A stretch of 64,000 nt of DNA, taken from contig CM120646.1 of NCBI GenBank assembly GCA_051362555.1, positions 21,266,001 to 21,330,000 on the forward strand, in the 5' to 3' direction. Source of the stretch: Lingula anatina. Its lineage: Eukaryota; Animalia; Brachiopoda. Numbering within the stretch: position 1 is the first letter of the stretch; each line of letters opens with the position of its first letter. Below the pieces are notes generated by a model, which saw only the letters and a program-made list of their open reading frames with translations, did no database searches and had not been told where the DNA came from. Shown piece by piece: positions 980 through 44,547 of the stretch. Made by a program: the position numbers and the translations under genes.

Positions 980-1164
980 GTATGTATTGCGTACACATGC
1001 ACAAACTCGCACAAGTGCTTACACTCAAACTCTGATAAAAAAGCAAAAATTCTGGGCATAGCTAGTCGAAATGGTTCACTTCAACTTTAAAATATATTAA
1101 TTTATTATAATTATTGTATTAATTTATGATAATTATAGATTTATTTATACTTACCCCATTACAG

Positions 1165-5499: not shown

Positions 5500-5562
<63 letters not shown>

Positions 5563-8254: not shown

Positions 8255-8293
<39 letters not shown>

Positions 8294-10085
8294 GCACACA
8301 CACACAAGCACACACACACACACATGCATGTACACACACACGCACACACACACATGCACACACACACATACACACATCATATCCGTACTTGCTGTGAGGG
8401 GTATCCAGCCAATTATCACTACACTTCCAGCAGAAGATTCTCCCACACAGCCGACAGTGGTGTTTCCTCAGCATCAGCGAAAACTGAGACTTGCAGCCCA
8501 GGCAGTGCGCCACCGTGCTGTCATCCATCCACTTCTCCGAGGCTTTCATTCTGTGCTCGAACTCCAGCTTGTCTGTCCTCTTCCACAGGTTGTCTTTCTC
8601 CCTGGAGAACACAGAGAGAGGTTGTGACAGAGAATTGCGTGTTTTGTCTCACCTAACACATTTCTGAACACTGCATTGTCATTCTCCAGAGAGATGGTGA
8701 CAGGGATGGTTACCGAGACACTTGACTTGAGAAGTGAAAATGAATTGTGATCTTTGTCTCACTAAGCACATTTGTCAACATTTCAGTATCATTTTTTCAA
8801 ATTGGAGATAATGACAAGGAGTGTGATAAAATTGAAACTTTTTTTCTCTACTATGACATTCCTTAAATCTATTAGTGTTGAGTCAATCATATGTTGAAAA
8901 TCAAAATATTTATAGTATAGCCATGATGCCCAGATTTTACCTCTAAAACATTCGGAACTTTTGTCAATATTAAAAATATCTTAAAATAGCTTTTAAAAAT
9001 CATACAAACTAAAAAAAAAGCGACTTCAAACTGTGTATGAATTTGCCAAAAAACTGAAATATCACGATTTATTAATTTAATTCAGTGTTTGAGATCTTAA
9101 GAGCTGACAGTGTCAGACATTACTCCAGACTTACTTTATCAATTTAATCAGCTTCTTCTTCAGTTCCACCATATCTATGTTTAACTGTTGGATTTCTTTG
9201 TCTTTTTCTTTTATCACAGCATCTTTGCTCTTCTTCACATTCTGGGCTTCATTCTGAGAAAATTTTCAACAGAGACATGAAACTAATTGGACATTGTATC
9301 AGTTGTATTTTTCATTATTTTTAATCGTACATAAAAAATCATTCTGGTTTTTTAAAGTCCTATAAAGAAATCAAAAGTGCTTTCTGTTCAACTGATTCAT
9401 TTGCAAAATAAAAAAAAAAAAAACAAGTGAAGTATTTCACATTGCAATCTGAGGGCAAATTGTGCAATGTGTGAATAGAAATTCAGCCATATGCCACATA
9501 AAAAGATGATTTATTTGCCAAAATTATCAAGCACATGGCATACCTTCAATTTCAGCACTAAGTTCCTTTCCTCATCCAGCAAAGAATTGGTCTGTGGAGA
9601 AAGAATAAGTTCCATCAATCTCAACTGATAACAGTACAATAAAAATACTTACACATCTACAATGTACACACATGCAATCATATGTGCACACACATATACA
9701 TTTATATACTCACATATGTACATGTAGACTTTACACAATTTCTTTTTTTATTACAACAATTTCAGGACATACCCTCCTCAAAGAATCACTCATCAGTTTA
9801 CACTCCTCTCCTTTTTCTGACAGTCCTTGTCTCAGCTCTTCTAACTGAAAGAAGACAGGTCACTATGAACAGAAAAATAGTTTAAATTTCAATGCTTGGC
9901 AGAAAACAGTGGTCTGTGTTTGTTTAAAAGTGTGTGTGTGTACGTGTGTGCATGTGTGTACTAAAACGTGTGCATATGACCAAAGAATTATAAGACACTC
10001 CTTTCTCCAGTTCTGTCTGTTTGTAATTTTGTGTGTATGAGCATGTTTATGAAAGCACTTGTTTTTGAAATAGTGTGCACGTGTG

Positions 10086-10144
<59 letters not shown>

Positions 10145-16100: not shown

Positions 16101-19048
16101 GTATTTTAAGCTGACTTTACAGGAAAAATTATCCAAATAAAATTGGTTTCAGATGTCTTGATGGGTGTTAATTCAGTGCTTGTCATACGGGTAGGTGTCA
16201 CTGAGTAGGTATGCCTCCTATTTTAACATGCAGGAATGGGTCTGAGAGCATAAAACTCCACTGATGGATTCTTGCTAAAAAGTCTTAGTTTTGTGACCAA
16301 TGGCAAATAATAATTTCCATAACTCTTTTTGCACTTGGTCATGTACTGGAACTTGAAATGTAGCCAAAGGTTTTAAAATCTCATCAGCAAGAACCCAAGG
16401 TGGTGGGAATGTTATCTGGTATGCAGGATGAGGTATATGGAATATTATGAAAGCAAGACAACCTGCTCTTGCCATCCACCCCAGTTAGTGGAATCTATCT
16501 CTAATTCTGGAATTTCTTCACTCAGTTTTACTACCACTCCGGGAGACTCCTAGAAAACAAGGCACAGCTACAGGTACACGTACTACATAGCATGAAACAC
16601 ACAAAAGTATGAGTAGAATGCTTCTAAATTAAGTACAGGGAGACAGACGTGGAAAATCATGCATCTCCTTCCTGTATAAGTGAAAATGGAATATCTTAAT
16701 GTCATCATGGACATTACTACTTGAATTCATTAAATAAAACCTCACTACATTTCAAATTTCAATCTGTAACATTACTTTCATACTTTTTGAAGCAAATTTT
16801 TTTTCAAAGTCCCTTTTGCAACATCATCTCAATTGCGATTTCTGTAAGTCCGGTAAAAAAAATCAAAAATACTACAATATATGGAGAGTGCAGTTCATAA
16901 ATGGCTACTCACATTGGGTATGCTGAGGAGGCTGTTCATACTAGAGGTTCTACTAGGGGGGTTCCACCCCTTGGGCGAGCCAAACGTCTTCCTAGAAGAG
17001 AACAGATGTATGTGGTAGTCAGAAGTCACTGTACTTTGTTATTAACAGTTAAGACTTGTACTTAAACCAATCTAAATTTTTTGTAAGTGCCAATATCGCA
17101 TTTCACATTATTATTATTATTTTGGGGGGATAGGGTACTTTGGAACAAGTCTGAGACATCTTTTACAAACAATGACAATACAGATATTCTTATTCTTAAA
17201 ATTCAATAATTCTTGAACTCTATTAATAAATGTTTAAGAAATAGTTCAAAATTATTTTATTGACAGAAACAATTGCTCCAGAAAATATTCTTTTGGATAA
17301 AAAATTACTAAAAGAAAGAACTAAAAGAAATTTCACAAACTTGGCAAATGTCGGCCACGTTGCATCAAGGTCGTATCCATGGGGAGCAAGGTCAAACTGC
17401 ACTTCATTGAGGTCATACATGCTGGCTATCACCTCCATAGAGTATTCATGCATTAGCCAGACTGAGCCTGCGTAGTACCAGTCACTGGAAGAAGAAGAAA
17501 ACTGCAAATGAGTTTCCATTCAATTTTTACGTCATCAATAATTTCATCAATCAAGTGTATAATAAATCTCTTCATGTACATCTTACAAAGAGGAGTGTGT
17601 AATGTTGACAAAGGAAAAATGTCAAAATTCTGAATTCTTTTTTTTTTTCTGTATAAAGTTCTCATTCATGAAAAATTCTCTCTAAGACTTCCACTGCGCT
17701 GTGGCCAATTTTATAAAAGAACTTTTGACTGAATGTTGGTCTTTACATTGTGATTTCTTGATCACACCCACTTTGTGATATAGTTATGCCCCCCTTGTAA
17801 TATTTTAAAAAACCCACCTTGTGACCTTCTTATTTACCACACCTACCGTGTGACCTAATTACACCTTCCTGTGACCTAATTGCACCCACCCTGTGATTTT
17901 AAAAAAACCCACCTGGTGACCTTCCCATTCATAGCACACTGCTGTATGGAGTCTGCCAGTCTTTGATGTACCAAAGCAAACCTAATAAACCCACGCCCCT
18001 TGCCTAAATTGGTCTTCAACTGAAATGTTATAATGTCAGTGTATTATCATATCAAAATATAGTCAGTGGAGATAAAATATATCACTTACTTTATCAAACA
18101 CATGTTAGTACAAATTTTGAAAAATAATTGAAAGTGATAATATAATCTCTAACTTAGACTATGGCTGAAAATGGTAAGGTTACTGACAAAGAGCGCATTC
18201 TCAACAAAGTAAGCCAGGCTTTACAAAGCCAGTGACCTAAAAATGGCAGACGTACATGAAAGAAAAACCGCCTAATCTTTTAATAGTCTCTCCGCCTCCC
18301 CACACGTCGTCCCTGCGGGGTACAGTAATTAAATCGCGTCTCCGTTCGCCATGCGGAAGCTACCTGAGAAATATTAAGTGCGCATGCTCATCAGTTAAAC
18401 TCGTGGTGAAGAAAGCATTGCGGCTGAGGGCGATCGAAGGAAAAAAGCTCTTCTGTTTTATTATCTTTGAAAACAGAGACGAAAAAGGAATAATTTGGCC
18501 CGTAGAGCAGCAATGAATCGACTATCTACGGAGATAATATCACCAGAGATATTCACGGAAATATAAATGTTCGGAGCCGAGATTTAATTACTGTACCCCG
18601 CAGGGACGACGTGTGGGGAGGCGTGTGAGAGGCGGAGAGACTATTAAAAGATTAGGCGGTTTTTCTTTCATGTACGTCCGCCATTTTTAGGTCACCGGCT
18701 TTGTAAAGCCTGGCGTACTTCGTTGAGAATGCGCTCAAAGATTTTAAATTAAGAAATTATCCTTTACCAAGGAGGGAAGGTCTTGTACGTAATTGAAATC
18801 AAAGAAAATAACAAAATTACACTTAATAGCATAAGCCCTGTCAGTGTGGCCCCTTCATCTAGCGCTAAATATAAATTTTACCCCAAACAATGAATCTAAT
18901 TTCCTCGTCAGTGTTAACTGCCAACTGTACCTCAGAGAGTGATTTCACAAACTTGATGCCATCATTGAGACCCTTGGTTGATCCCAGACAATCACAGAAG
19001 TAGTTCCAATAGTCCTTCTTTCCTCCTAGGAGAGTGGTCTTGGCTGGA

Positions 19049-19103
<55 letters not shown>

Positions 19104-20307
19104 TTAATTAAAGAAACAATAAGAACAACAACCACAATGGCATCCAATAATTATCTTATCACAGATGACTACTACTACTGATCATGATTATTTTAACTTA
19201 AAGTATGTACTCTGTACACAAGCAATTTGGTCTGAAGTTAAGCCTAACTTGAAACATGAAGTTTTTTTTCTTTCTTTCTTTTTATTATTATAATTTTTTT
19301 TTTGGGGGGGGGGGATTGGACCCAGACCCCTGGGTGTAAGCAGTCCCTGACAATGACCCCTGGGTGTAAACAGTCCCCGGGGGGAGGGGGGTACTTACCT
19401 TTCTGCTCAGCCTGCAGCAGGTACTCCAGCTTGGCACAGAACCTGTGCAGTGTCTGACAGTCATCTGTGATGGGACAGCCCGTGTCCTGAAAGTCACTCT
19501 TCAGCTCCAGGATACATTCTGCAATGAGAAATTGTATAGATTCCACAACTGTCACTTGCTCATAGGGTTAAGGGATAAGGGGGAATTACAGCTTCAGAGC
19601 CGAAATCACTTCCACATAAACTTTACCTTTATCTTTTAGTTTTAGGCTCCAAAACAAAAAGGTGAATACACCAAAACAGCAAATAGGAGACAGGCCATCC
19701 TCAACGAAAAAGTCATATAAGATCCTATAGAAAATTGGTCTAATATTCTGTTAAATCCTATAGGATTTTATAGCATCCTATTAGGACTTTTTCTTAAGGG
19801 ATAGACTACAGAGATGAATGATGGGCTGCCAGGGCAGGAGGCTACATCAGGGCAAGGCTAGGTATAGCCAAGGCATTATGCTGGGTGTATAAAGAATGTG
19901 GGTTTTTCTCATGCATGAGATTTGCTTTGCTCTTACTTTGTCTTACTTAGGTATATGTAAGACACATGCCGTCTAGTTCTATATCACACTGGGGTACTGT
20001 ACATGTTTGTACAGGTAGTTGTACGATCATAAAGGCCACAGGTCAAAAGTAAGCACCACATACCTGCTATCAAAACATACACTTTGCCAGAGTTTTCAAG
20101 TGAGGAGCAAATTTTGGGAGATGAGTGGTGAAATAAGGTTTTGTTCTAACCGTTTCCAAACAGCTGTCAAACGGCCACGGGAAAGTGGGGGCAAAGTGAA
20201 TCTTGTTAGTTGCGTTTTGCATGCTTACCTTTTAAATCTTGGATCGTTTTTTTAAGAATATTCTGTTGCCTCTTGGTGGGATTCACGGCAGGTAAAGGGC
20301 TCGACAT
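4631..20307 (-). CDS. FYCO1: FYVE and coiled-coil domain autophagy adaptor 1 (FYCO1) orthologue, about 1907 aa, 22 coding exons
   Basis: Manually spliced GT-AG exons with consistent phases: 20307-20229, 19518-19399, 19043-18931, 18019-17913, 17484-17341, 16991-16913, 14909-14692, 14425-13552, 13288-12683, 12445-10607, 10309-10169, 9844-9773, 9591-9544, 9253-9135, 8601-8389, 8005-7854, 7567-7427, 6883-6751, 6427-6275, 5770-5611, 5120-4960, 4682-4631 (sum 5724 nt). The RUN-coiled coil-FYVE-LIR-GOLD order is diagnostic of FYCO1. Confidence 0.95.
6275..6427 (-). CDS. FYCO1: FYCO1 exon carrying the LC3-interacting region (LIR)
   Basis: [17 protein letters not shown] resembles the human FYCO1 extended LIR DDAVFDIITDEEL and sits between FYVE and GOLD. 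Phase 2-2 exon with tag and gtgagt boundaries. Confidence 0.88.
7854..8601 (-). CDS. FYCO1: FYCO1 FYVE zinc finger exons (8601-8389, 8005-7854)
   Basis: [25 protein letters not shown] and RVCNGC: the canonical WxxD, R(R/K)HHCRxCG and RVC FYVE signatures. Confidence 0.95.
9135..14909 (-). CDS. FYCO1: FYCO1 central coiled-coil exons, including a 1839-nt exon (12445-10607)
   Basis: Long E/K/Q/L-rich heptad ORFs (10556-12499, 12665-13270, 13546-14361) bounded by in-phase splice sites. Confidence 0.92.
14994..15184 (+). mobile_element. Degenerate non-autonomous DNA element (CAGGCCCGTAGC...GCTACGGGCCTG family) in a FYCO1 intron
   Basis: Ends caggcccattgc...ggctacagacctg. The interior aligns by eye with the reverse complement of 22022-22354. 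Confidence 0.6.
17341..20307 (-). CDS. FYCO1: FYCO1 N-terminal RUN domain exons
   Basis: [26 protein letters not shown] / [39 protein letters not shown] / [37 protein letters not shown] / [28 protein letters not shown] / DWYYAGS...[20 protein letters not shown]; closely follows the FYCO1 RUN domain as I recall it. Confidence 0.95.
18191..18736. mobile_element. 546-bp MITE, PIF/Harbinger (Tourist-like), copy 1, in FYCO1 intron 3
   Basis: About 145-bp terminal inverted repeats starting GAGCGCATTCTCAAC. 3-bp flanking duplication AAA/AAA. Near-identical copy at 46836-47381. Confidence 0.9.
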
Positions 20308-27692: not shown

Positions 27693-27727
<35 letters not shown>

Positions 27728-28022
27728 GTTTAATAACTCTCTCTCTCTTTCTTATGTTTTAATAACTCTCTCTCTCTTTCTTATGTTTTAATAACTCTCC
27801 CTCTCTCTCCCTCTCTCTCTCTCTCTCTTATGTTTTAATAACTCTCTCTCTCCCCCTCTCTCTCTCTCTTTCTCTTATGTTTTAATAACTCTCTCTCTTA
27901 TGTTTTATAACTCTCTCTCTCCCTCTCTCTCCCTCTTATGTTTTAATAACTCTCTCTCTCTCTCTCTCTCTCTTATGTTTTAATAACTCTCTCTCTCCCT
28001 TTCTCTCTTATGTTTTAATAAC

Positions 28023-28057
<35 letters not shown>

Positions 28058-28349
28058 TGTTTTAATCTCTCTCTCTCTCTCTCCCTCTTTCTCTCTCTCT
28101 CTCTGTCTCTCTCTCTCTCTCATGTTTTAATAACTCTCTCTCTCTCTTATGTTTTATAACTCTCTCTCTCTCCCTCTCTCTCTTTCTCTCTTATGTTTTA
28201 TAACTCTCTCTCTCCCTCTGTCTCTCTCTCTTATGTTTTATAACTCTCTCTCTCCCTCCCTCTCTCTCTTATGTTTTATAACTCTCTCTCTCTCTCTCTC
28301 TCTTATGTTTTAATAACTCTCTCTCTCTCTCTCTCTCATGTTTTAATAA

Positions 28350-28378
<29 letters not shown>
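27665..28378. repeat. Composite minisatellite: (CT)n alternating with a TTATGTTTT(A)ATAA core, about 18 units
   Basis: Directly visible periodic alternation of a constant core and variable-length CT tracts. Confidence 0.9.
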
Positions 28379-28380
<2 letters not shown>

Positions 28381-29871
28381 CAACACCAAGGTCACATAAA
28401 ACAGCCTACGGCATTAGCTAGTCGTAAAAGTGCGTGTCACCAATCTTTTTCTAGTCATTCACTTTTTTTAAATAGCACCTGCGCTATTTGTTCTCCTGTT
28501 CCATAATATCACTTTCGCCAGTGTGTTATTCAGCCTTGGTGTGCAAGGCAGCGCAAAACAAATCGCTGTTGGCAGCTTGCAGAACTGAATGAGGTATATA
28601 TGTGGGTCTTGTCAGCGCCATATTGGGTTTCCTTTTAGTTCGCCAGACACTCTGTCAGTGGTGATTTCCGAAAGACATGTTATCTGAATGCAGCGTTCGT
28701 CTGGTAACTGTGTACACGCCAAACTACAGTCTTGCTTTTGCAATAAGTCACGGTGCTTTTTACAAAGATAAAACACTCAGCTTTAGTGTAAATAGTAAAT
28801 TTTCATGATCATTTTGATAATTGTGTGATCATTTTGATAGTTGTGATGCAAAAAAAAAAAAAAAAAAAAAAAATGACACGCTCCCAAACACGCGCAAAAT
28901 GGCACGCTCTCAAGCACGCGCGTAGGCCCTGTCGCACTCACAGACATTACACTCATGCTGGATTTGTCTTTAATATAAAAGGACAATGTTTATTTGTTGA
29001 GTACTGGAAGTTTATTTCCATTCGCTTACGACCAAAATGTGTATAGTATCACTTTTATAACAAACTGCATTTTGAAGTGTATTTCAACTTGTACAAATGT
29101 CATTTAAAGGCTCACTGTGCTCTGGGAACACAGAACGTTCACTGCTTTTTTTAACAGTATAAAAACTATAAATTGACGTCAACAATTGTTCTTTTGAAGT
29201 TTTAGAGAGAAAAGAGGAGATTTAGATGAGAAAATTCTTTTACTCTGTGTGTGTATGGGATACCCAAAGGAACAGCCTTACACGTGGATATTGAACAAAA
29301 ATCACTTGGTCGCTTCAAAGGAAAAGTTATCAATCTTCTAAAATTTCATTTAATGCAGCTTTCGAAAATATCTTAGTGTTACTTTTCTACAAGGGACTTC
29401 AATGGGTAAGTCACCTAATGAACTTTTTTTTTGTAAATAAAGATGCATACTTATGTACATGTAAAAATGAGATAGATCTCTCAATAAATAGAAAATATGC
29501 CAGTGTACCTGATAAAATTGTTCTTTTATCTTATAAAGTGTCAATTTATATCTGTTACAAACGCGATGGTTGAAGGAGCTGTTTCTTGTCCTCTTTCCCG
29601 ACCATCCTCAGCCACACTAGATTGTTTAAAATCCCCGTTAAGAGAGGGATCTGCAATTTTTAGGTATCCTCCCAAGATAAAAATTACAGATACAAAACAC
29701 GCAGTTCTTATCTGTGCCTTAGGCATCTGAAGTAAGAGCAAATGACCCAAAAGCCTGTAGAACAAATGGCAAGCCAGAAGAAAAAATTGGATTTTTTAAA
29801 TTAATTATTTTTTTCTTTAATTTCAAAAGGAACTACACTGCGAATATATTGGTTGGCGTCTTTTGCTATGT

Positions 29872-30158
29872 TCACTGACTACTTTCGTCTGATTTTTTTC
29901 CAAAATGGAATACGCGTTTTCCCCATCTGAGCATTGCCTTCTTGTCGTCGGGTGTATCAAGTTCACTGATTGGCTCCAGATCGTCTGACGTCATCTCCTC
30001 GTCCTCAGGGCCTCGTTTGCCGTACCGCCACATTCCGCGTTTTCCGTAGCGCCAAATTCCACGTTTTCCATAACGCCAAACGCCACGCTTCCCATACCGC
30101 CACATGCCTCGTTTTCCATACCTCCAGATTGGCCCCCTCTTGAAAGCCCCGATATCTT
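29872..30158 (-). CDS. Neuropeptide precursor, peptide-encoding exon (GxWRYamide x5, AMLRWamide, VFHFamide)
   Basis: tttactttttag acceptor (phase 1). Translates to (E)DIGAFKR-GPIWRYGKR-GMWRYGKR-GVWRYGKR-GIWRYGKR-GMWRYGKR-GPEDEEMTSDDLEPISELDTPDDKK-AMLRWGKR-VFHFGKK-SDESSQ*. It shows dibasic cleavage sites, Gly amide donors and an acidic spacer. Confidence 0.93.
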
Positions 30159-30558
30159 CTAAAAAGTAAACAAGAAAACAAGTCGTAATACACCGTGGCT
30201 TAATTCCTAATTTTAAATGTTTTTGAAGCCACGCAGGCATAATGATAGACTAAAGTAAATTTATGACATGTCAATACTTTCGTATTGACTTTTAAATAGA
30301 CCGATTAATCATACACTGCGAACCAAATCTCTGTCTAAAAGAATAATGGGAAAAGGTGCAAAGGATACGAAATATTCATGTCATTTTAATTAGTTCAGCG
30401 TAATTAGATCAGTGCTCGACAGAAATCCGCAGATAACACTCAGTGAAGGCGGCCACAAATGACGATGTTTCAACACTGTGGTTACTGAACACAATCGGAA
30501 CCATATGTCTTTAAAGTGTCTAAATAAAAACAGATATTGTAAATGTATCGATGCTCCC

Positions 30559-30597
<39 letters not shown>

Positions 30598-30692
30598 TGT
30601 GTCATAATAAACATCTAGGATTTGGCCATCCTCAAACTTCTTGTTACGGAAAGAATCAGTCTCTTGGAGTTTAAGTGTTTGAAGTGTCTTAC

Positions 30693-30780
30693 CACTAATT
30701 TCTGCGTCTCCAAATACCGCTGCCGTTAGCACCACGGAACACAGGAAACAAGCCCACAGAAACAGTCGAGTCTGGTCCAT
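30693..30780 (-). CDS. Neuropeptide precursor, signal-peptide exon
   Basis: attccag acceptor 3 nt before the ATG. MDQTRLFLWACFLCSVVLTAAVFG/DAEIS is a typical signal peptide. The strong phase-1 donor G|gtaaga at 30692 joins in frame to 30158, giving a 124-aa precursor. Confidence 0.88.
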
Positions 30781-30829
30781 TATCTGGAATGAGAGTAGAC
30801 ACTGTACTTCAAGGACGCTTTAACGCTAT

Positions 30830-30831
<2 letters not shown>

Positions 30832-30872
<41 letters not shown>

Positions 30873-30966
30873 TGTGTGAGAGAGAGACGGAGAGGGAGAC
30901 GGAGAGAGAGAGAGAGAGAGAGAGAGACGGAGAGAGAGACAGAAAGAAAAAGTGAGAGAGAGTGTG
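30832..30966. repeat. Compound (GT)n(GA)n microsatellite
   Basis: Directly visible. Similar CA/GT tracts at 5501-5560, 8249-8376, 10088-10142 and 30561-30602. (AAT)n at 19050-19101, 23035-23086 and 53503-53543. (AAAT)n at 23860-23912 and 26295-26340. Confidence 0.9.
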
Positions 30967-33900
30967 TCTTTTGTGTGTGTCCTAATACGATATATAAGGA
31001 AGTAGCACATGTTCACATTTTGTGTTTACCATAATGTTTTGGCCTGTCATTATTTGCGGTAAAGTCTAAACCGAAAGTCAAGCATATCACAACAACAATA
31101 ACACCAAGAAATAAACACATTTTAATCAGGATATTTGAAAGGTTTGGAGTCGAATCATAACGATAACCTGTTTAGTGATCTTAATTTTCAGTTTATTTTG
31201 CATTGGTCTGTTCACAAATAAAAAGAAGTGCTTTAATCGTCAATTGTCTTACTGGAAACTTGAACATATTCTTCAGAAACCTCTTGGTCACATGACTAAA
31301 TTGGACAAATCGTCTCAAAAATCATTAGGAAATGAAAGTTTTGCTTCATGCTTTAATATATTGAATCCATAGATCTGTACAGGTACCTGTCCAATTTATT
31401 GGGTCTTAACAAGGTCAGATGTTTCAATAATTGACTACTGGCAGTCCGCTCAGTGCCCGGACAACGCTTCATGCCAAGCCCTATAGATGGTACCCAACTG
31501 CGGAAGTTCAAACCGCGCTCCAGACAAAATGTTATCTTTTTCTCAAATCTCTACGAGGAAATTACTTCTAGATCGCAAACAAAGGAAATGGTCGGTTCAT
31601 TTACTCCTTCTTGGTAACAACAGAGACATAAAACAATCCTGACGCGAGCTGCAGCACCAAGAATCCCCAATTTAATCAGAGATAAAAAATAGCTGTACGT
31701 AGCAATCAACCTACGTAGCTGTCGAAAAAATTTCCCCTACAATATTTCCGGCTTGACACTCGGACCGTGAACCAGAACGAAATTGAAGTTTTATCTGATG
31801 GTCGCTTTCTGAACCAGCTCCTAACCCCCTAACCCGTGAGCAGGTGCATTTTGTCTTATTCCAAGGTCGCATTGTCACCACTGAAGGTGAAGGACGTGCC
31901 GATAGCTTGATCGAAACTTGATCGTTACTTTGTGTCACATGTATTTTACTGCGCCGAGCAAGTTTACGTCCATTCATTCATTCATTCATTCATTCATAAA
32001 AGGTCGGTATAATGTTATATACTTCAATACTGCTAACCCACAGTGTATAACAGATCAGCTGACTTTTGACTTTTCGTCAGTTATTGGCTTTGTTGTGATA
32101 GTTAATACATTGTATGAGCATCATGACTTTTGCAAGTCAACAAGGCGTAATCCCAGCCTGTTTGAATATCTCTGTTTGTATACAACACTCCTTAGATGTT
32201 TCACCAAGTTGATATTTCAAAGAAGTTTTTTTTTAAAGTTGAAAACAAAGTATTTTTCAGAGGAAAGAATAGTGTCCATTCAGCATTTACACCTGCAAAG
32301 ATCTTTGAACCTTGTGTTGCTGAAATCATGGTGCGTGCATCTAAAAGGATTGCATGTTAAATTTTTGGCAAAGAGTGAAGCCGTTTCATTTACAATAAGG
32401 TGGATAATTAAGTTTCCAATGCAATCTGCTTTGAAAATGTCTACGATTCCTATTTTAAATTTTGTGAATAGAAGGGGGAGGACAAATAATGGGTAACCAT
32501 AGAAACTGCCGCAACATTATCACAACAATATTTTAGACACAAGGGCGTAACAATCTGAGTTTTTTAAACATTGACTTGTTTCTTATAATTTGGCTTTGGC
32601 TTATAGTTCTCAATGATCATTGAATGAAAACAAATCGGATACCAGAAATCTGTTTCTGTTATTTTTGAAGCACATATTTTGATGAGGAAATGCAACTGGC
32701 CCTTAATAAAGTCTACATTACATTGGTCTTGAGACCGCTTTTAGAACAGATTTTGGTCGACTCACAAATATGGACCAAACGAAAGGGCTACAATAATTAA
32801 AGGTTTTTATCACTGATGTAAGAATTTGACGTTTGACTTTGCACTTGGAGATCAATTTGACAACGGCTTATATTTTCTGAAGTTTACCGACATTATAAAG
32901 ATCAATTTGGGATAATCAACAAAAGATTACGAAACCTCCCACGTGTTGGCTTTGTAATTACATAGACTTGCAGAGCGAATAAGAGTGTATAATTATAAAC
33001 GAGTGTGGTTTACGATGCAGTGGATTAGGAATCGTAATTAAGCTGCAAAGGGAAACAACTAAGAGTTACGTTTTGTTCCAACATTCCTCACTAACAGATA
33101 ATAAAACAAATCAAGTATTAAACGTCTGTCTCTGTGCTGTCTTATGGCACACATTTTACGAAGGTTATTGAGCTAAAATTCTTTTGAAACTGCCACTTAA
33201 GCGAAATGAGTCGGTTACAAAGAGCTCCTCCAGGAACAGAGATACTTACGTTACTGTTCCTCTAAGCGCTACCTACTGCATCTTAAGTGAAGCAAATACT
33301 AATCCTCTCGTAACGAGTATATGATCCAATTAACAGGCAATTATAAAAAGCTGATTAGGCTTCGTAATTACGCACTTCTCGATAATGTACTCACTCGATC
33401 ACGTAATTCAGGACAACTGATAGGCGTTTCACCGATATTAAAGATGATACAAAAGATAAGAACACGTTAACCACGTAGTGATGTCAGATGTAAATTAGTT
33501 TATAAGTTGATCGTTTGGAAATCATATTTCGATCACAATCTTTCGCGATCGATTATTTTTTAGGCATTAAGGCGTATGCTCTCTAATCTACTCAAGGCTT
33601 ATTCTTATTCAGTGCCATGGTCACAGAAAATTGTGCCTGTCATGCTGATACGCTGAAAATCACCTGCATAGTGAATTTTATTGAAAGGGAGATAGAATTA
33701 GGTGCTTCTTTGTCACTTCACCAAATGTGAGTTGATATACCGAGTAGAGTTACCAGAGGCCATGCTCGGCCTCGTCTTAAAGCATTTTTATAGCAATAAA
33801 GCTTTCAGGATACCACGATTTGCCCTAAATGCGTAAAAGTATAATTGGAGCCCTTTGGTTTTCAAATAGCAAAAGTGATCCTACTTTCCTAACCATACTT

Positions 33901-34819
33901 TAATAAAAAAAAAACATAAATACCATTTCGTCTTCGTAGAATTTAAAACATTGCAAAAATATTTTATAGCAGGAATTTTCACTCAGTACCTTTAGGTTTT
34001 AAGTTTAAGATATAAGCGTGATCTACTTGAGGGGGTGTCGTAATAAACGTCTTATATCTACAGTGAAATAAACTTCAAAAGGCTGCCATAAACAATAAAC
34101 AGATAAACTAAAGGAATTCCTTAACAAATGATCCTTAAACAAAATACACGACGATAGGTGGAAGATATAGATATCTGGAACCCATGTTACATGCTACTTG
34201 AATAAAACGTATTTCCTTTCAACTGTTGTGGGTTTTCATCGAATTATTAACGTCATCTGTAAGATTGATAAGTTACACCGCCTTAATTACCTGCGCACAG
34301 TTCTGCTTTCATTTCAAATTATCTCCAAACTGAATATATATGAGCAATTTTGAACATTCCGCCCAATAAGGCAGATGGGTAAAATGGTTAAAGGTTTGCG
34401 TGAAGGGAAACTGCCTTGAAACAGTAACTGACTTGATTAATCGGTTTTATAGGTCTTTAAAGACAGTTTAACGAGTTAAAAGCCCAGAGGACGAAGCTAT
34501 TTGAATAAAAGCTTAAGTTTATCACAAGTTTATTACATTCTCTTAAGTTTTATTTGTCTGTTGCTGCTAGAGAACGTTTAATTGGGTTCATCGGGTTGCC
34601 TAGAAAAGTGTACAATTTCATACGGTAAAGATAATCGCGAAAGGATTATGTAAAGCAGCTTTTCCGACGCTAATATGTTGATATTCTAATGCATCTTGAA
34701 ACGTGTTTTTTTTTTCTCACAAGTTGCTCCAACTGAAACATATAATGCTCATGATGCCTCGAAGGAATATTTATAATGAGAAACAGAATATAAAGACTTG
34801 CTTAAATCACACTGATAGA

Positions 34820-34872
<53 letters not shown>

Positions 34873-36355
34873 GAATGCGTATTTGTATTAAAGCGAAATT
34901 AGAATTGCACCTGTAGTCCAGAAAGAATCCATGGTATACATTTCTCTAATAGCAGGATCATTTAAGTAACATCCAAACTACTTCAGGCTTGGTACTTAAG
35001 TCTAAAAATGTCCGCCGGGATGATCGTTAATTGCCCTTTGTCTATCTACAACTAAAAACTCGGTATGTTCTTCAATATAACCCCCTCCCCTGTGATAGTC
35101 CAACTGTACATACACTGTTTGTCCCTTCATATTTCCACTGCGCCTATAGTTTGATAAGTGCGGTAATGTATCCATCCAGCACGCCATCAATCCAGTACTT
35201 CCGTCACATCAGTGAGTGACGGACAGACAAATCGTCTTTGATTGAGATATAATACCCGGCTCGGCAACTGTTTCGTAGTTCTCACCACAATCTCTAATGT
35301 GGGCAATTATGCCGTCCGGAAATATGCCCGTCTTTTATCTTAAAACTTCAGAAGATGTGCCATTTCTCTGACAAACGAGAAAATCTTTGATGACAGTTTC
35401 AATTATATGGGAAGGTTTAGAATAGTGTGCTCTGAGGGCTCCCGAGCACTAATAAGTTACTTATATTATAGTGACAACCACGATTAGTAGGAGCTTTCAC
35501 ACATTTATTCACCGACCGATTTTTTTGTAAAAATTTAAATTTATTATGTTTTTTCCGCAACGATCACGAACTAACTTGTTTTCGTTACATTGACTCTCGC
35601 GTGATAATAAGAACTTTCTATTCTCATTTGTCAGTCCATCATTCGATATTTCCTTATTAGGAATACTGTAAAAGCCTTGTTTTCTATTAGAAATTCTAAA
35701 GTATTACTTGAATTACATCACACTGCGATCATACCTAAACTCGGTTTGCATGTGCTATTCACGTACAATTTGAATATGAAATTTACCAATCAAATAAAAC
35801 TATATGACGTTGACATTTTCTGCCTTATCTTAAAACGAAAACAAACTACACTTGTTGACTCTTAATGAAATGAAACTTACACTCAGTTACTCCCTAGCTT
35901 TTACTAATTTCATTCAATTTTACTTATTATTCGCAATTGGTGAAGGCATTAGCCAACAGTGACTGTTTTTGCCTGCCAGTTGTACGAAATTTCACTTAAA
36001 ACTGAACAATAATTGGACTTGGAGTAGAGTGGAATTAGAAATAGTGACTAAAACGAGTGCGGTGTGACAACAAATAAAAACTGACATTATGATCCACTTA
36101 TTTTTAATAGTAGTTTTCTCTTAAGTTCTATAGCACAACTGTACATGCTCGGATTCAGCGTGGTTTGGGAGTCAGATTTGTGTTGATTTTGAAGACGACT
36201 TTCTAGAGACACAGACCTCCACCCTTATTGCCAAAAAGTTAACCCCACCTTACGCTGATTCTCGCACGTTTTTCTAGTCTCGTACGACATCACACAGGAC
36301 TGAGAGCCTCGTTTTGGGCTCTCACGGATATTTCCACTCGCCCCTTTGTCCATTA

Positions 36356-36568
36356 AAGCCCCCTTTACACTGGACGGCGTCCTTTCTGCGTCCAGCAGTT
36401 CGGCCCCATTTGAGAGTTAAAAAATTATAATACTTTACGGCCGACAACTGGCCGATCATTGAGCATTCATTCTGATACAAAATCGATGCTTGTGCCTCCT
36501 TATTAAGACCACAGCGATGCCAAATTTCATGGTCGCAGAAAGGACGCAGTCCAGTGTAAAGGGGGTAT
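36356..36568. mobile_element. About 210-bp MITE with about 40-bp TIRs, Harbinger-like
   Basis: ccccctttacactggacggcgtcctttctgcgtcca ... tggtcgcagaaaggacgcagtccagtgtaaaggggg form an inverted pair, flanked by TTA/TA. Confidence 0.7.
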
Positions 36569-37901
36569 TACCACCACGAATAGAACAGCCACCCACCCAT
36601 ACTACACTCTCGCTATACAAAAATGTATACCCTTGCCCTGTCAAATCCTTAATATTTGCAGAACTGATGACATGCGACTAATGCCATGCAGGCAAATGCA
36701 TAATCCTGGTTGATTTATACGATAATCGTTCTCTGACAGCTGTTTCGTATTGACTTATATCCTTCTGAACCAAGCACGGTGTCCATTAAGGTATGAAGCA
36801 AATGCTCCCCGAAGATAAGAGCCTTGGAGCAAGTTTCTAATATTACACTGGTAACCAGGTGAAATCGTTGGGCACTAGAATCTCTTAATCCTACATTTCT
36901 CAGCTGAATGAAATTTCACAAAAGATAATGAATTGGAGGGGGTTGAAACCGTTTCGAATGCAGTTCATTAAAGCTTCACCTCTGTGTTCTGTAAGAATCT
37001 TTGTGTGCAAATTATGTGAAATAGGTACGAGCGGTCAAGGAGTTTTAGCACTGACTATCAAAAGCCAGAACTGGTCCAATATATGAAAGTTTCTCGCCAG
37101 TGATATTTTTGTCACGTTATAGGTACCAGTAAAATCTCACACAGAACGTGAAACTGCTTTGCGACAACTTTCTAGAAAGCCTGAGTGTCATATACCGTAC
37201 AATACAATGCAGCGTGGATTAGGAACACTACACCGGAGACGCAAATAAAGAAAGAGCCTAGTAATTAAATCGCGTTTCCCTGTTATTTCACACGTAAGCT
37301 CTGAGCCTGGCATTGCATCCGTTCCATTGAAAGTTATCCTGTTTCTCGAGGGGAGATAAACATATTTCATTAATCTGTTTGGGCATTGTTCCAGCTATGT
37401 GTTAAGGGAGTGCATGGGATCCAATAGACCGATAGGTCGATTACACGAACAATGGCTATATACTATCTAGCATTGAGTTTTAGCAATTTTCCTTACTATC
37501 ACGAAACTGGATAATAACTTATTTGCAATTAGATGTAATTTGATCGTAGGTCAATCAACTTTTTTTCCATACTGCGTGCATTGTCTCTATTGCGTGCTGT
37601 CAGATTGGAAGCGTTGAGTTTCTCAATTCAAGAGCGAAATATGGACACTTTGCAATATAATAGTGCAACGCAGTAACATATCTTAGGTACTAAAGTCCTG
37701 AAGCCAGTAGATTGCATTCAACAAAGTAAACGTTTCATCCGATATGGCGTATTGGTATCAACCAATGCACAGTTCACACACACAAACGTGCTTTCACTGT
37801 TCATAAGGTCGGTGAAATTTGGTGGGAGAATTCACGCAAATTGGCCGTTTAAGTGCGCTCTGTCATAAGTTGTAGAGTGTAAAAGAAGTTAATACAAACA
37901 G

Positions 37902-38110
37902 AAACTAGAAAAGTACTCAGAAAAACAATAAATATTAACTAATAATTAAATATTGATTATTTAATGGGTCATCACCAAAATCTAATCATTTTTAAGTAAG
38001 CCTATCATGAACATTTTCAAATTCCATAACTTTTTAAGGTAAGCTGGTGACGAACAAACAGATAATCAGACAAACACAGGCGGAAGTAATTATTCATCTT
38101 GCGAGATACT
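37902..38110 (-). mobile_element. Degenerate HINE/Helentron-type element (reverse copy of the 46151-46388 family)
   Basis: aaactagaaaagtactc, atcaccaaaatctaatca, ccataacttttt and acaaacaga repeats match the reverse complement of the 46.2-kb element. Confidence 0.55.
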
Positions 38111-41100
38111 TAGGATACCAATTTACCAGATTCCACACCTTCAATTTTCTTGCATTATCTAATTATGAAAATTAGACCCAATCTTGTAGCATAAGACATT
38201 TACTGGAACAAATAAAGAGGCCCTGTAAGGCATCTGACTGAAACGAGTCCGGGATTGGTGCATACGGAAGATAATGTAACAGTATTTTGTTTTTCTGTAG
38301 TAAGCAAGCAGATTGGAAATAGTAAATGAGTTATATTTGCTAATGACACCAATGAACAAAGGAGTGCACACAATTATAAATCATAAATAATGAACGAGTA
38401 ATCGTGTGAACTATACTAAACGAATAAATGAACGAAGTTTATGAATTCCCTAGTTATAAAACACGGAATTGGTGGCGGAACACAGCGTCATAAACTTGCG
38501 TGCTAATTGAATTTCAAGGGCATTTTCCACACAGCCAACAGTAATGCAGCAAGAAATTTAGGGTTTCAAAGCCAATCATTGCCACTGCGCACGTAGAAGC
38601 CATTGAATCTTCTTTCAACATCACTTGGCTTCTCCTATCTCTAAGTGAGCAATAAAATCGTTTGATGCATTTCATCTGGCATAAAATACCTTGACTTGGC
38701 GACATGATAACTCTATTTCTCCATTAGCACCCTCTAATAGCTAGTAACAGTTTGTTTCAGCTTGAGTGCCCCGCTAACGTCACAGAAGATAGCCCGGTGC
38801 ATTAAGCTGATCGTCTGCGCAATTTGGGCAATCGTCTGATCTATTTGGATGGATCGTACTTAAACCATTTGGCCCATTTGTCAAGGTCCCCAAAACATTT
38901 TCCATACCTTTCGGACAAATCTTTCCCATTCTTTTTTGTTAATGCAAAGTGATTTTTATAGTTAATTCAGGATGCAGTAATTGTCCCAGAGAGAAACCCA
39001 AACCGTTTGAAAAGATTTACTTCGATTCATGACTACAAATGGCACATACATCACCCCCACTGAATGCAGAGGCGGAGGGGGTGGCAGGGGTAGAGGCGGG
39101 GGGGGGGGGGGGGTGAACAGAACCTTCCATTAAAACGCTGAGGAAGTTTCAAGGCCATTAACTAAAGAGTGTCATTATTTGAATGAGTTAATCGAGTGCC
39201 TTACTGATATATCGATATCTGTTGAAAGCCAACGCCATAGATCCCGACGTAAGAGCGTTTATCTGGTTTGGGATGCACTAAATTGCGTCTTATCTTTGGG
39301 ATAAAGACCGTGATGCTGTAAATTGTTTTTATATAAGTATATACTGGCTGAAAGATCCCGAAGACGCATAAAACTGGCTGAAGGATTAATGCGTGGAAAT
39401 CAAATGCAGATGTCTTCCGATCATTGCCTCAATCAGGCAGTGCAGCTGGATGCAATCGGCAAATGAATGCCATTCCGGCACGTCTTGTATCTGGATGCAT
39501 ACGACTTATTTATTCGAGGCAAACACGTTCGGGAATTCAAACACCCATCTTTTGCATTCAATTGAGTCTGTAAAACTAACTCAGGTTTAAATAGAAAACA
39601 AAACGTAAAAACAAGGCAGATTAACAAAAAATATTCTTAACATTGCCCTTTACTTCCGTGAAAATACAATTAGATTGGTTCATTCTGTCAAGAAAGTTAA
39701 GCGGAGTTTTGACTGGAGGGGGGATAGCATTGTTCTGAGGCAATGCATTAAACTGTATTTTAATTGTATTCAATTTCTGTACAATCGATCCCACGGCATC
39801 CAGGACCTTCTCACTCCTCTTGGTAACGTTCAATGATATTAAAATGTCGCCCGAGAGCCATGAGATTTGAACCCTACTTCGTCCCGGAGCATTCCTCACA
39901 ATTGTTCGTCTTCTTCCCTCAGACAAAATCTATGTTTTGTGCAATAAAGTGATGACAGCAATACGCCCCACAGGCTGTCAATATCGATACGTTTTAAGTT
40001 GGTTCTGACTTTTTGCTGCAATAAGACACAACCTTCTCTTTTAACATGGGCTGAAATAATTGATGAGCCATGCACGCTGTACTGTAGTTTGATCATGTAT
40101 AATTATTGGTTTTAAGGAAAATTTTTATGAGAAAACTATACAAAACTACCTGACCTACGTGGTAAAAAGTACTTCTGACCGTTATTTAATTATATAAACT
40201 AAAGTATCCCTTCCTCCATGCTTGTATTCTCTGCGATCGACTCGTATTAAACGACTAACAAGGGACAGGATGGGAAAGGGTGAAAAGGATACTTGACACT
40301 CCGTCTTCACTTTGAGCCATGGCGTAAGCCCAGTAACAGTGCATTTCAGCCCGAAATTAAAGTACAGCAATCACGGCAGTCGAGAATCCGACATGAAAAT
40401 TGATCAAGTTGTCAATTCCCACATTTAAACTGTCAGTTTCGCACTTTCTCAGATAAGTCCTCCACGATACGCAGACAGAAAATTGCATCCTCAGCTAACC
40501 AGACTGAAAGACTAAATGCTGTGCTTGGCACTACATCGCAGTGGTACTTGACTACTTGAGCGCTTCTATAAAAACTATTTTTATTTCTCTTCATCTCTGC
40601 GTCTGATCGAAAGCAGCGTTGGTAAATGTGATAAACTTTTTATCTTCAATAGACCAAAAAAAAAAAAAATACATATCCATCTTTTGCAATTATAAAAAAG
40701 AAATATTGCGACATGTTCCATTAACACCGCAAATTTTGCCTACCTAAACATAAAAAGAACATAGAAAAGAACACAAAAATAGAAAATATGGTCTCTAATT
40801 AACTGAAGGCCAACTGGACATTTTCGTGACAAAATGGTGGGGGCGCCACAAGGTATGGGTTATATGGCTTGCTGCTAATAATCCTCACACACAACCCTAG
40901 TGAAGACATTCTACCAGAAAGTGAAGGTGTCAGTTTGTGTAATATTCCGATAATTGAAATACCATAAAGTCGCAAAAACAAACAAACAAACAAACAAACA
41001 AACAGAATCAATCAAACATGATAGCTAGAAACATTGTAGCTATAGTGAAATGTATAAGTAATCATTGCATTTGCGTCCATATGTCACGTTTATTTTCTAT

Positions 41101-44100
41101 TATCACATTCGAAATCAGTTCCAATTTAGCGCCAGGAAAGTAGATATTCGTTTGCTTCTGGTTCTCCTGGAACTTGGCTTGTTAAAAAAAACCTTATGGG
41201 ATTCCATTTTCTTCTCTTTAAGCCATTTATTTATTCAAAAAAGCAATAATGACATGGAGTAAATCAGAAGGAAGTTGATTCGATTTTTTTTTTTCATTTT
41301 GGAAATCGCCTTTACCATTTTCGAAGGACATCTCTATCGCAAATAAAACTAAGAGCAATAATAGTAGACGGCTTCTGCAGCAATACATAGACAGTTTCAT
41401 GCAGACGTTTATTGTTGATTTTTCTTTACAATTGGATAAGCCATACAGGTTTGTAATTAGCGTTACGAAAGGAGAAGGTCGCAGATAAAGTCAACAAACA
41501 AACACTGCGTGGCGAGACAGAGCTATAATTCTACTTTAAACAATACTCGTAATCTAATGGCCCTAAACAGGCGACAAACTAGTCTGTTCGTCATGCACAT
41601 TATAAGTGTAATCAATATAAATTATTTCATTACAGTGCAATTAGAAGTAAAAATATCCTTCATATGCTTAATCTATGAAACAATCCGATTTTTATTCCAA
41701 TAATGAGGAAAAAATTGCCTACTTCTATAAAACATGCATTTTGTTTTTTTGTACATATACCACGGCACAAGTAAGTTGTGTATGGATGATGTGCAATTAA
41801 TGGAATAATCTGAAGGAATGGTCACCCCCATAGGCCTCATAGGGTATACTACCACGATATTTACTATATCGTTTTTTTTTAAAGATAAGTGTTCTGAATG
41901 ATTTCTGGCACCAAAGCGACTGCATTATCTCTGAGCTTTTTTTTCACAATTCACAATGGCTGCCAATGATCGGAAACTTAAGTACTTCTTTACCTATGAA
42001 CTGAAAACCAAGACCGAATTACATATTTTGGCTCAACTTACCATGACTGAATTAATCGTCGAAGGCGTTTGTAACATTCAGATGCTGGGCATTTATTTGG
42101 TTCCGTTCTCAGATTAGGCTATATTGCATTCACATGATTAAAAACATGCAAATCAATGCATATTTTAAAAGAGTAGGAACAAACGGACTACCAAGAACCC
42201 ACAAATTTCTTTTGAGACTGTTTAATTGCGATTTGAAGTCTCAATTTAGACCGATTTTGGTAACTTTGTGGGGAGATGATTGGCAATCCATAATTGGTTT
42301 AACAGATAGCAGAATGCAGTTAATTTCCAAATCTTCTAAATGCTGTTTTACTGTATTCAGTCCTACTGTCTATTCTATTCTATTGTGCCCTGTTCGTACC
42401 GACGTGGTTCACTCTCATTCCAATATTGCACAATCCTACTCTGCCTATTTCTATACCAATACGGCAAACATTGACAAAACGATGACAGATGACAAGCATC
42501 AACCTAACACTCATGGAATATAAAATATCATTTTACTTGGAGATTTATCCTGATTCTTTGTGAATGTGTTAAAATGCAATTCTTTATAATAAGGACGCTC
42601 GTGGCATTTGTAATCAAGATGTATGCGCCAGCTAAAAAGTCAATTTGGGTGAGAAAAACACCAACTGCCTATGAGCAAGTCATTTCTCTACGAAAACTGC
42701 CGCAGGTTACAGAATAACACAAGTTCTGCCACATTTTACCGTCAACTTTGTGTCAAATACGTTAACTAAGTCGACTGAAATACAATTACATATCAGTTTT
42801 TGGCGTCAAAAAGACATTTCAATTACCACGCGTAAGCGAAATCAAGACTGAATGCCTAACCCAACCCTTATATATACATGACTTTATTTGAGCGCTGACG
42901 GTTCATTATCGCTTGAAGGTACATCATCGGCTAGTACTTGGTCTATTCATGTCTGTTCTGTTATATTCTAGTCGACTCTTCATTATTTAGCTCTAATCTA
43001 GTCTAGCCTACTCTACTCTAGTGCAAACAAGTCTAGTTTTTCTGATCCGTTCCGTCAAATTTTGGTCCTGGCTACTTCATTAAATCTCGTAACGTACTTT
43101 TTGTCTGTTCTGTTACAATTGCATTACAACCGGTATTTTTTTCCATTTCATTATGGTTCCCTTTTAAGAAAGGTTTGAAAAAGTCAATTCCAGGAAACGT
43201 CTATATCACTCAAGTTAACTGACAAGTGCATTCATCAGACTTCAAGCATAAACTTCTACAGTCCTTGGTGTTAGGCGTTATTGGAGCAGAGTCGTCTCAA
43301 GCATCCATCAACCGATTCCAAGAAATACGCACTTATGCCTCCAATACCTTTTTGTTTTACCAATGATTTCATTTTAAGAAACGTTTTATCGCTTTAAGGA
43401 ACTGGCAGCTCTAAAAGTATAATATAATCATCTTTTTTTACTTTACACCTGTCATTTAATCTATTATTATTATAACAAGCCAGTTGGTCTTTGCCAACGC
43501 AACCTGATTTACTGTTGATGCTCAAAATTTCTTCTGGCTTTTTTAGGGAAAATATAGAAATCAATGCGGCGCTTCCTTAGGTCATTTTCTTCATTCGTAT
43601 CAAATTATTCTATACTGCCTAGGGTTAAAATTTATCATCAGCTAGAATCGTAATAATCTTTTTATCTTTTAAGAGAAAAGAAAACGTTTGACTTCCCCGC
43701 AAGCGTATATGCGCCAATAATACTATGATATATCTTTCCTTGAAGAACCCTTCATTCGAAATACCACTCGTTGATGCCCTTTCTTACATTTAAAGCTAGA
43801 ATAGAATTTACTTCAAACCGGCGCTAAAAAAACGCCTTTGAAAAATTTCACGGTAAGAACACTGTGCTTTAAAGATTTTTTGCTTTTATGGACTAAATAC
43901 ACTTCATTGTTCCTGCGTTTGAGCAATCACTAAAAGCATATACTACTTACTTTTTATCCTCGAATCCAGTTAGTAGAAAGACTTCAGATTCTATAAGGTT
44001 TCTTCTTTTAAATGACGGAACGTAAGCGCAGTAACGAATATATTTTCACGCGGCTCTGTAGTGTCCTCTGATTGGCTCTTGTTGTCGTCTGCTGTTTTAG

Positions 44101-44547
44101 TATTGAAAACTAATAGTATGCCGAACAGTTTTGATGCGTCTCAACTCATAGAAAAGAGAATTGTAAATACTGAGAGTTCCCAGGTCGATGCAGCAAAGTG
44201 GGCGACGGTTGGAAGTCGCTGCCTTTTAAAGCTAGAGCTCTGTCGCTGACGCAATTGGATGCATGGAGAACTATCGATTCTTTGCTCACATCACAGCGCG
44301 TGCCTTTTGTATTCGCCGGAGAGTCAGTTTACCTTTTGTTATTTCGTCATGATTCACCTGAAACACGATATAGGACCTTCTTGCATTACTCTAAATTAGT
44401 TTAACAAGGCTGTGATTACCCTACTCTTTGCAGCTTAAATCTGCTTAACAAAGATCTGTGTTGAAAACAACTGTGTGTCTTTAGTGGCCTTAGTTCAGCA
44501 ATGTTGCACACAACAGGTGTTATTGTTCGAAAGACTTGTTGTCTGCT

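What the first reader, a model, noticed from the sequence alone, without database searches (positions are those of the whole stretch)
29872..30783. Multi-copy WRYamide neuropeptide precursor with extra RWamide and HFamide peptides
Seen: splicing 30780-30693 to 30158-29872 gives a 124-aa protein with a signal peptide and KR/KK-flanked, Gly-extended peptides: GPIWRYa, GMWRYa (x2), GVWRYa, GIWRYa, then after an acidic spacer AMLRWa and VFHFa. The ORF track splits it into two apparently unrelated ORFs, so automated annotation could miss it. Established: dibasic prohormone-convertase sites plus Gly for PAM amidation define neuropeptide precursors. Inference: the short multi-copy G-x-aromatic-R-Y/F-amide layout resembles the lophotrochozoan short-NPF group (molluscan LFRFamide/LFRYamide, Platynereis RYamide), and LRWamide echoes Drosophila sNPF-3/4. 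I do not recall a described family with a WRYamide terminus. It lacks the C-terminal Cys pair of luqin/RYamide precursors. It may be a new or strongly diverged peptide-GPCR system with three C-terminal chemistries from one gene.
Basis: partly seen in the sequence, partly recalled or inferred. Interest (0 to 1): 0.85.

Follow-up and report, generated by a model that had tools for sequence, protein, structure and literature searches.

The report
Lamp-shell short neuropeptide F precursor
This is a real, spliced and transcribed nerve-signal gene of the lamp shell Lingula, already listed in two published catalogues and filed in one as its short neuropeptide F; its predicted peptides carry an unusual tryptophan and likely act on the short-neuropeptide-F receptor, but they have not been tested.

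Summary
The gene is real, but it is not new. RNA reads join 30693 to 30158 (GT..AG) and show a non-coding first exon 13 kb upstream. The 124-aa product is identical to Lingula anatina g8124.t1, apart from 8 extra N-terminal residues in that model that the reads do not support. Thiel et al. 2021 list g8124.t1 as this species' single sNPF/LFRFamide precursor, beside a Glottidia orthologue with the same seven peptides. It is also in the De Oliveira 2019 supplements. The 'three chemistries' are a family trait: 8 of 35 related FRY-type precursors carry an RW/KW-amide, all 8 after the tandem block and acidic spacer, and 5 of the 8 are followed by an FxF-amide, as here. What is unusual is Trp at position -3 (0 of 214 peptides in a biased set) and loss of the final xxPFRF-amide. 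I found no main-text discussion, peptide detection or receptor test for these peptides. Verdict: already catalogued, most likely a divergent lingulid sNPF (0.78). Low interest.

The parts
43951..44200 (-). Exon 1, non-coding 5' UTR. The 3' end is exact; the 5' end is approximate (reads reach at least 44125).
   Evidence: Joint 30783/43951, CT..AC on the plus strand, 32 reads in X19-X21; loose end of the X10 contig maps to 43952-43981; in-frame TAA before the ATG, and one 2-codon upstream ORF at 44149
44173..44349 (-). Candidate promoter motifs: TTTAAAA at 44230, TGACG/CGTCA half sites at 44349 and 44251, TCAGT at 44173
   Evidence: Motif look-up only, no shuffle control; function inferred
30784..43950 (-). 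Intron 1, 13,167 nt, GT..AG, in the 5' UTR
30693..30783 (-). Exon 2: 3 nt of UTR, ATG at 30780, predicted signal peptide (about residues 1-24, 30780-30709) and start of the pro-region
   Evidence: cleavage site inferred from hydropathy
30159..30692 (-). Intron 2, 534 nt, GT..AG, phase 1 in codon 30, after the signal peptide and before all peptides
30013..30141 (-). Tandem block of five WRY-Gly peptides between KR sites (residues 36-78)
29944..30012 (-). Acidic spacer, 23 aa with 11 D/E
29920..29937 (-). AMLRW-Gly, the predicted RW-amide, first peptide after the spacer
29899..29913 (-). VFHF-Gly, the predicted last peptide, followed by KK, a 6-aa tail and the stop at 29874-29872
29282..29871 (-). 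3' UTR of exon 3; reads reach at least 29282; AATAAA candidates at 29016 and 28994
31030..31050 (-). 21-nt ATG-to-GT stretch that explains the extra N-terminal residues of the published model g8124.t1; likely a false exon
   Evidence: Its translation matches the model's extension; depth 0 in the bins 30886-31266 and 30924-31454 in all 7 runs laid

Best explanation
The locus is a three-exon, transcribed gene of Lingula anatina whose 124-aa product is likely the species' short neuropeptide F (sNPF/LFRFamide) precursor, with the family's Phe at position -3 replaced by Trp in lingulid brachiopods. Shown: splicing, transcription, reading frame, silent-site divergence of the repeats, identity to the catalogued g8124.t1, and the order block / acidic spacer / RW-amide / FxF-amide. 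Inferred from established prohormone biology: the signal peptide takes it into the secretory pathway, convertases cut at KR/KK, carboxypeptidase trims, and PAM turns each terminal Gly into an amide, giving seven peptides of six kinds. Inferred from orthologues: the peptides would activate one or more of the three sNPF-type GPCR sequences listed for Lingula, through Gi and/or Gq, and would modulate feeding, energy storage and spawning as LFRFamides do in abalone and oyster.
For: Identity with g8124.t1, printed under 'sNPF/LFRFamide' and counted as Lingula's one sNPF (PMC8557429 supplement). Lingula has separate luqin and FMRFamide precursors and RGWamide, myomodulin and NPY entries. The only homologue at E<=0.01 among 647 candidates is a multi-copy FRY precursor with the same block-spacer layout (P0001, E 8e-4). 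Its relatives include the Platynereis and Lineus precursors. In that set 8 of 35 carry an RW/KW-amide: 8 of 8 after the block, 7 of 8 as the first peptide after the spacer, 5 of 8 followed by FxF-amide. The Lottia precursor labelled LFRFFamide also ends in an FH-aromatic-Gly peptide. One coding intron after the signal exon with all peptides 3' of it is the pattern reported for oyster sNPF (bioRxiv 10.1101/712687). Three sNPF-type receptor sequences are listed for Lingula and one for Glottidia. Function of the orthologue: PMC9071130.
Against: Trp at -3 occurs in 0 of 214 peptides of the 35 relatives (the set was found with an FRY query, so it is biased). The last peptide lacks the xxPFR[FL] motif present in 22 of the 24 non-lingulid sNPF entries, including all 3 other brachiopods (counted by eye; the 2 misses are fragments). 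Four of the five block peptides have 5 residues, not 6. The Glottidia entry keeps an unassigned label ('RFa_MPCs') and the Lingula entry has no family prefix, so the placement looks like manual curation. Novocrania has both a normal sNPF and a separate unassigned FWRF-amide precursor. An intron after the signal exon is common to many precursors, and its phase in other sNPF genes was not seen. I could not search the Lingula genome for a canonical sNPF. No peptide or receptor data were found.
Confidence: 0.78

Rival explanations
1. It is a separate W-R-aromatic-amide gene of inarticulate brachiopods, orthologous to the unassigned Novocrania FWRF-amide precursor (which looks like the Cys-bearing LFRYamide/FRWamide type), and not the sNPF gene.
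For: Trp at -3 is shared with the Novocrania precursor, while Novocrania's own sNPF has FKY-amides and a final HVPFRF-amide. The family's last-peptide motif is missing here.
Against: The Novocrania precursor is much longer, has dispersed copies, mostly monobasic sites and four pro-region Cys. The LFRYamide type is described as having a double-disulphide peptide (PMC4200219). The window protein has no Cys outside the signal peptide, a tight KR block, and the RW-then-FxF order of sNPF precursors.
Confidence: 0.12
2. It is a lingulid-specific duplicate of sNPF that drifted to a new receptor preference, while a canonical sNPF gene exists elsewhere in the genome and was missed.
For: Strong divergence at -3. 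Three sNPF-type receptor sequences in Lingula (these may be paralogues, alleles or isoforms). Neuropeptide catalogues are incomplete.
Against: The Lingula set used was 97.6% BUSCO-complete and only this sNPF is listed for both Lingula and Glottidia. No Lingula-named protein was among the 35 FRY-type hits (weak, because the window's own protein was not returned from that collection either).
Confidence: 0.08
3. It is a luqin/RYamide, FMRFamide or HFAamide precursor, or a chance open frame.
For: RY-amide endings; the HF letters in the last peptide; Lingula has no HFAamide entry.
Against: No C-terminal Cys pair; separate luqin and FMRFamide genes exist; no Pfam family reached its cut-off; spliced reads and silent-site divergence exclude a chance frame.
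Confidence: 0.02

Closest known systems
Lingula anatina g8124.t1 and Glottidia pyramidata comp46828 (sNPF/LFRFamide section, supplement of Thiel et al. 2021, PMC8557429; g8124.t1 also in De Oliveira et al. 2019, PMC6425005)
   Same: g8124.t1 is identical over all 124 residues (compared by eye). Glottidia has the same seven peptides in the same order.
   Different: The published model has 8 extra N-terminal residues from a stretch with no RNA coverage. The real first exon is non-coding and 13 kb upstream.
Annelid sNPF ('RYamide', Platynereis AEE25645.1 = P0030; matched to the review's description by its peptides, an inference)
   Same: Tandem RY-amide block, acidic spacer, RW-amide after it; in 5 of 8 RW-bearing relatives an FxF-amide follows (PMC6389622).
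   Different: F, M or L at -3 instead of W; more peptides and spacers after the block.
Molluscan LFRFamide / sNPF system (Haliotis, Crassostrea, Lottia 154926)
   Same: Short Gly-started multi-copy peptides, KR sites, about 130 aa in abalone, one coding intron after the signal exon in oyster; the Lottia precursor ends in an FH-aromatic peptide.
   Different: LFRF-amide ending instead of xWRY-amide. Receptors and functions are tested there and untested here.
Phoronid, nemertean and other brachiopod sNPF precursors
   Same: Block, spacer, one further peptide, a last peptide and a short tail, most closely in Phoronis.
   Different: They end in xxPFR[FL]-amide (22 of 24 entries); the lingulid last peptide is reduced to VFHF-amide.

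Membership tests
Neuropeptide precursor (amidated, multi-copy) | [quoted passage not shown] | tested here: met
   signal peptide judged by hydropathy only
Neuropeptide precursor (amidated, multi-copy) | Gly plus dibasic sites around conserved short peptides | tested here: met
   Seven sites; silent-only divergence of repeats; same peptides in Glottidia
Neuropeptide precursor (amidated, multi-copy) | Mature amidated peptides detected in nervous tissue | not testable with these tools
   Needs mass spectrometry; the MS in PMC8557429 was on Lineus longissimus larvae
Lophotrochozoan sNPF / LFRFamide | Several short peptides ending R-F/Y/W-amide | tested here: met
   Five RY and one RW; the canonical RF/Y/W-amide ending of non-molluscan sNPF is stated in PMC9071130
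Lophotrochozoan sNPF / LFRFamide | F (or L, M) at position -3 | tested here: not met
   W in the five block peptides; 0 of 214 in relatives (biased set). Met by AMLRW and VFHF. This is a consensus trait, not a strict definition.
Lophotrochozoan sNPF / LFRFamide | Precursor order: tandem block, acidic spacer, further peptides with RW-amide after the spacer | tested here: met
   8 of 8 RW-bearing relatives share the placement
Lophotrochozoan sNPF / LFRFamide | Last peptide xxPFR[FL]-amide (lophophorates, nemerteans) | tested here: not met
   VFHF only; 22 of 24 non-lingulid entries have it. Many annelid-type relatives and Lottia 154926 also lack it.
Lophotrochozoan sNPF / LFRFamide | Coding intron after the signal-peptide exon, peptides 3' of it | tested here: met
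   against bioRxiv 10.1101/712687; low specificity
Lophotrochozoan sNPF / LFRFamide | Only sNPF-like gene in the genome (orthology by elimination, synteny) | tested here: inconclusive
   Published table lists one; no genome was held for a search
Lophotrochozoan sNPF / LFRFamide | Activates an sNPF/PrRP-type GPCR | not testable with these tools
   Three candidate receptor sequences are listed; no assay found
Luqin / arthropod RYamide | [quoted passage not shown] | tested here: not met
   Cys only at 11 and 14; separate Lingula luqin g29755.t1
Cys-type LFRYamide / FRWamide | Double-disulphide peptide in the pro-region | tested here: not met
   Feature from PMC4200219 and Lottia/Capitella entries; absent here
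NPY / NPF | One 36-40 aa peptide, phase-2 intron in the Arg codon of RF/RY | tested here: not met
   Short peptides; the only coding intron is phase 1 at codon 30 (PMC7314547)

The most novel reading that the evidence does not exclude
The lingulid WRY-amides are not sNPF but a separate, uncharacterised peptide-receptor system of brachiopods that was filed under sNPF by hand, related to the orphan Novocrania FWRF-amide precursor and acting on its own GPCR.
Probability: 0.15. Interest if true: 0.45.

Novelty: already known. Interest (0 to 1): 0.2.

Why it matters
As it stands this is a catalogued gene, so the gain is small: RNA proof of the gene structure and a corrected start for the published model. 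It has one use. Which ligand the lophotrochozoan sNPF-type receptor really answers to, sNPF or NKY, is listed as open in PMC8557429. Lingula and Glottidia have sNPF-type receptors but no NKY entry in that paper's table, and their sNPF carries a natural Phe-to-Trp change. They would make a clean test of that question and of ligand-receptor co-evolution.

Tried and rejected
Literature for the motif: a main-text search for WRYamide, WRYa, WRY-amide, WRY-NH2 and WRYGKR gave 185 papers, 20 listed; one listed paper held 'WRYamide', as a reference to a synthetic NPY-based tripeptide, which is unrelated. A search for GMWRY, GIWRY, GVWRY, AMLRW, LFRWamide and FRWamide gave 6 papers, none on these peptides by title and abstract start. 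'Lingula anatina' + neuropeptide + sNPF gave 7 papers, 5 listed, none reporting an assay by title and abstract start. The library lacks most subscription papers (for example Veenstra 2010/2011, not seen), and bioRxiv supplements were closed, so an unseen mention is possible. Pfam: no family above its cut-off for the peptide exon. Rfam: 0 matches in the window. No whole genome was held. The protein atlas gave no answer. The 1.84-billion-protein search was still queued at submission, so further WRY-type relatives were not looked for there. The run search listed no RNA holder; this is no evidence, and laying raw reads settled expression. Profile test: an HMM of 35 FRY-type precursors scores the protein 70.2 bits against maxima of 26.7 and 41.0 in two sets of 300 site-keeping shuffles. 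I give it little weight, because shuffling destroys the repeats and no competing FMRFamide or myomodulin profile was built. Earlier findings of the scan: nothing. No fold or complex job was sent, as the peptides are too short and no receptor sequence was held.

Full report
1. Observation. Of 18 aromatic-Gly-dibasic motifs in all six frames of the window, 7 lie in this frame. The five WRYGKR hexacodons differ at 36 places over 10 pairs, 32 at third and 4 at first codon positions, with no amino-acid change. That is the pattern of a protein repeat under selection, not of a DNA tandem repeat.

2. Expression and gene structure. I laid 7 of the 21 runs listed. The joint 30158/30693 is read 14, 6 and 14 times in X19, X20 and X21, twice in X16 and in one X10 contig; X13 and X17 show none, with 6-30% of each raw-read run read. 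The tissues are not given. A second joint, 30783/43951, is read 11, 10 and 11 times, so there is a non-coding first exon 13 kb upstream. It brings an in-frame stop just before ATG 30780. Of the 12 coding variants listed in the reads, 10 are silent; the other two fall in the signal peptide and the tail (the tables were cut).

3. Organism. The FYVE exon of the neighbouring gene matches Lingula anatina FYCO1 at 95% over 85% of a query that included some intron-derived residues. The precursor itself is identical to a named Lingula gene model. The window is from the brachiopod Lingula anatina.

4. It is already catalogued. In the supplement of Thiel et al. 2021 (PMC8557429; I read sections 5 and 16, passages, and supplement parts 27, 61, 62 plus searches) the protein stands as lingulaAnatina.g8124.t1 under the heading sNPF/LFRFamide, next to a Glottidia pyramidata sequence with the same seven peptides. 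The species table counts one sNPF each for Lingula and Glottidia, and separate luqin, FMRFamide, RGWamide, myomodulin and NPY entries for Lingula. The same model is in two supplementary files of De Oliveira et al. 2019 (PMC6425005; passages, one supplement part, searches; some files were cut when stored), in an unlabelled list of RF/RY-amide precursors. 'WRY' does not occur in the main text of PMC8557429. The model's 8 extra N-terminal residues trace to a 21-nt stretch at 31050-31030 in bins with no RNA depth, so it is likely a prediction error.

5. Is the sNPF label right? For: the only hit at E<=0.01 among 647 candidates of 51-165 aa was P0001, a multi-copy FRY precursor with the same block-spacer layout. 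Searching with P0001 gave 35 proteins from 39 candidates; only three carry informative names (Platynereis, Lineus, Capitella), and the Lineus one has the peptides of that species' sNPF. In these 35, 8 have an RW/KW-amide; it lies after the tandem block in 8 of 8, is the first peptide after the acidic spacer in 7 of 8, and is followed by an FxF-amide in 5 of 8. The window protein has this order. The review PMC6389622 (passages) says the Platynereis RYamide gene encodes LFRW- and XXRY-amides and resembles molluscan LFRFamide. A Lottia precursor labelled LFRFFamide ends in an FH-aromatic-Gly peptide. The single coding intron after the signal exon matches the oyster gene (bioRxiv 10.1101/712687, passages), which is weak evidence.

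6. Against: Trp at -3 is absent from 214 peptides in those relatives (biased, as they were found with an FRY query). The last peptide lacks the xxPFR[FL] motif found in 22 of 24 non-lingulid entries of the same supplement section, including all three other brachiopods (by eye). The Glottidia entry keeps an unassigned label. Novocrania has a normal sNPF and also an orphan FWRF-amide precursor, the only other W-R-aromatic multi-copy type I saw; it differs in length, spacing, cleavage sites and four pro-region Cys. No genome was held to look for a second sNPF gene.

7. Mechanism. Shown: transcription, splicing, frame, conserved peptides. Inferred from established prohormone processing (own knowledge): signal-peptide entry, cutting at KR/KK, trimming, amidation of Gly, giving seven peptides of six kinds. 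Inferred from orthologues: action on an sNPF-type rhodopsin GPCR, of which three sequences are listed for Lingula and one for Glottidia. In abalone, LFRF-amides inhibit cAMP through this receptor at about 10-30 nM, lower food intake and promote spawning, and the oyster receptor signals through calcium (PMC9071130; abstract, results part 1, discussion part 1). A role in feeding, energy balance and reproduction is therefore the best guess. The pairing is not certain: the Platynereis orthologue receptor was first found with NKY peptides and had not been tested with sNPF. Lingula has no NKY entry in the table.

8. Verdict. Observation confirmed; interpretation partly supported; novelty not supported. 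Already known as a sequence and filed as sNPF, most likely correctly (0.78), though untested at the bench as far as my searches show. New here: RNA proof of three exons, a corrected start, and the argument from peptide order. Interest 0.2. Other papers consulted: PMC7314547 (passages), PMC4200219 (passages), PMC7737342 (passages), PMC5367024 (one reference line).

Noticed in passing
window 4959-19567, minus strand: Exons of a FYCO1-like gene (long coiled-coil exons at 10556-14430, FYVE exon near 8367-8630) downstream of the neuropeptide gene on the same strand; the FYVE exon matches Lingula FYCO1 XP_013390207.1. A useful synteny marker.
   Followed up: partly
window 36354-36570: A 217-nt element with 41-nt terminal inverted repeats (90% complementary) inside intron 1, single copy in the window, drawing many partly matching RNA reads from other loci. 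It looks like a non-autonomous DNA transposon (MITE); a PIF/Harbinger type is a recalled guess, not tested.
   Followed up: partly
window 1101-1484, plus strand: A 127-codon frame with a transmembrane segment and a PPSY-type tail motif, likely the last exon of a single-pass membrane protein; no Pfam family reached its cut-off.
   Followed up: no
window 29282-30769 and 43992-44125: Runs X19-X21 differ from the window at many fixed positions across all three exons (most reads 95-99% alike), in keeping with a distinct population or a very polymorphic species; the mature peptides are unchanged.
   Followed up: partly
window about 27700-28400: A degenerate array of CT-rich units with recurring TTTAAT/TTATAA cores, downstream of the 3' UTR.
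   Followed up: no
window 44149 (exon 1): A two-codon upstream ORF in the 5' UTR, out of frame with the main ORF.
   Followed up: no
PMC8557429 supplement, parts 31 and 61 (not in the window): The unassigned Novocrania FWRF-amide precursor has four pro-region Cys like the Lottia LFRYamide and Capitella FRWamide precursors and may belong to that family.
   Followed up: no
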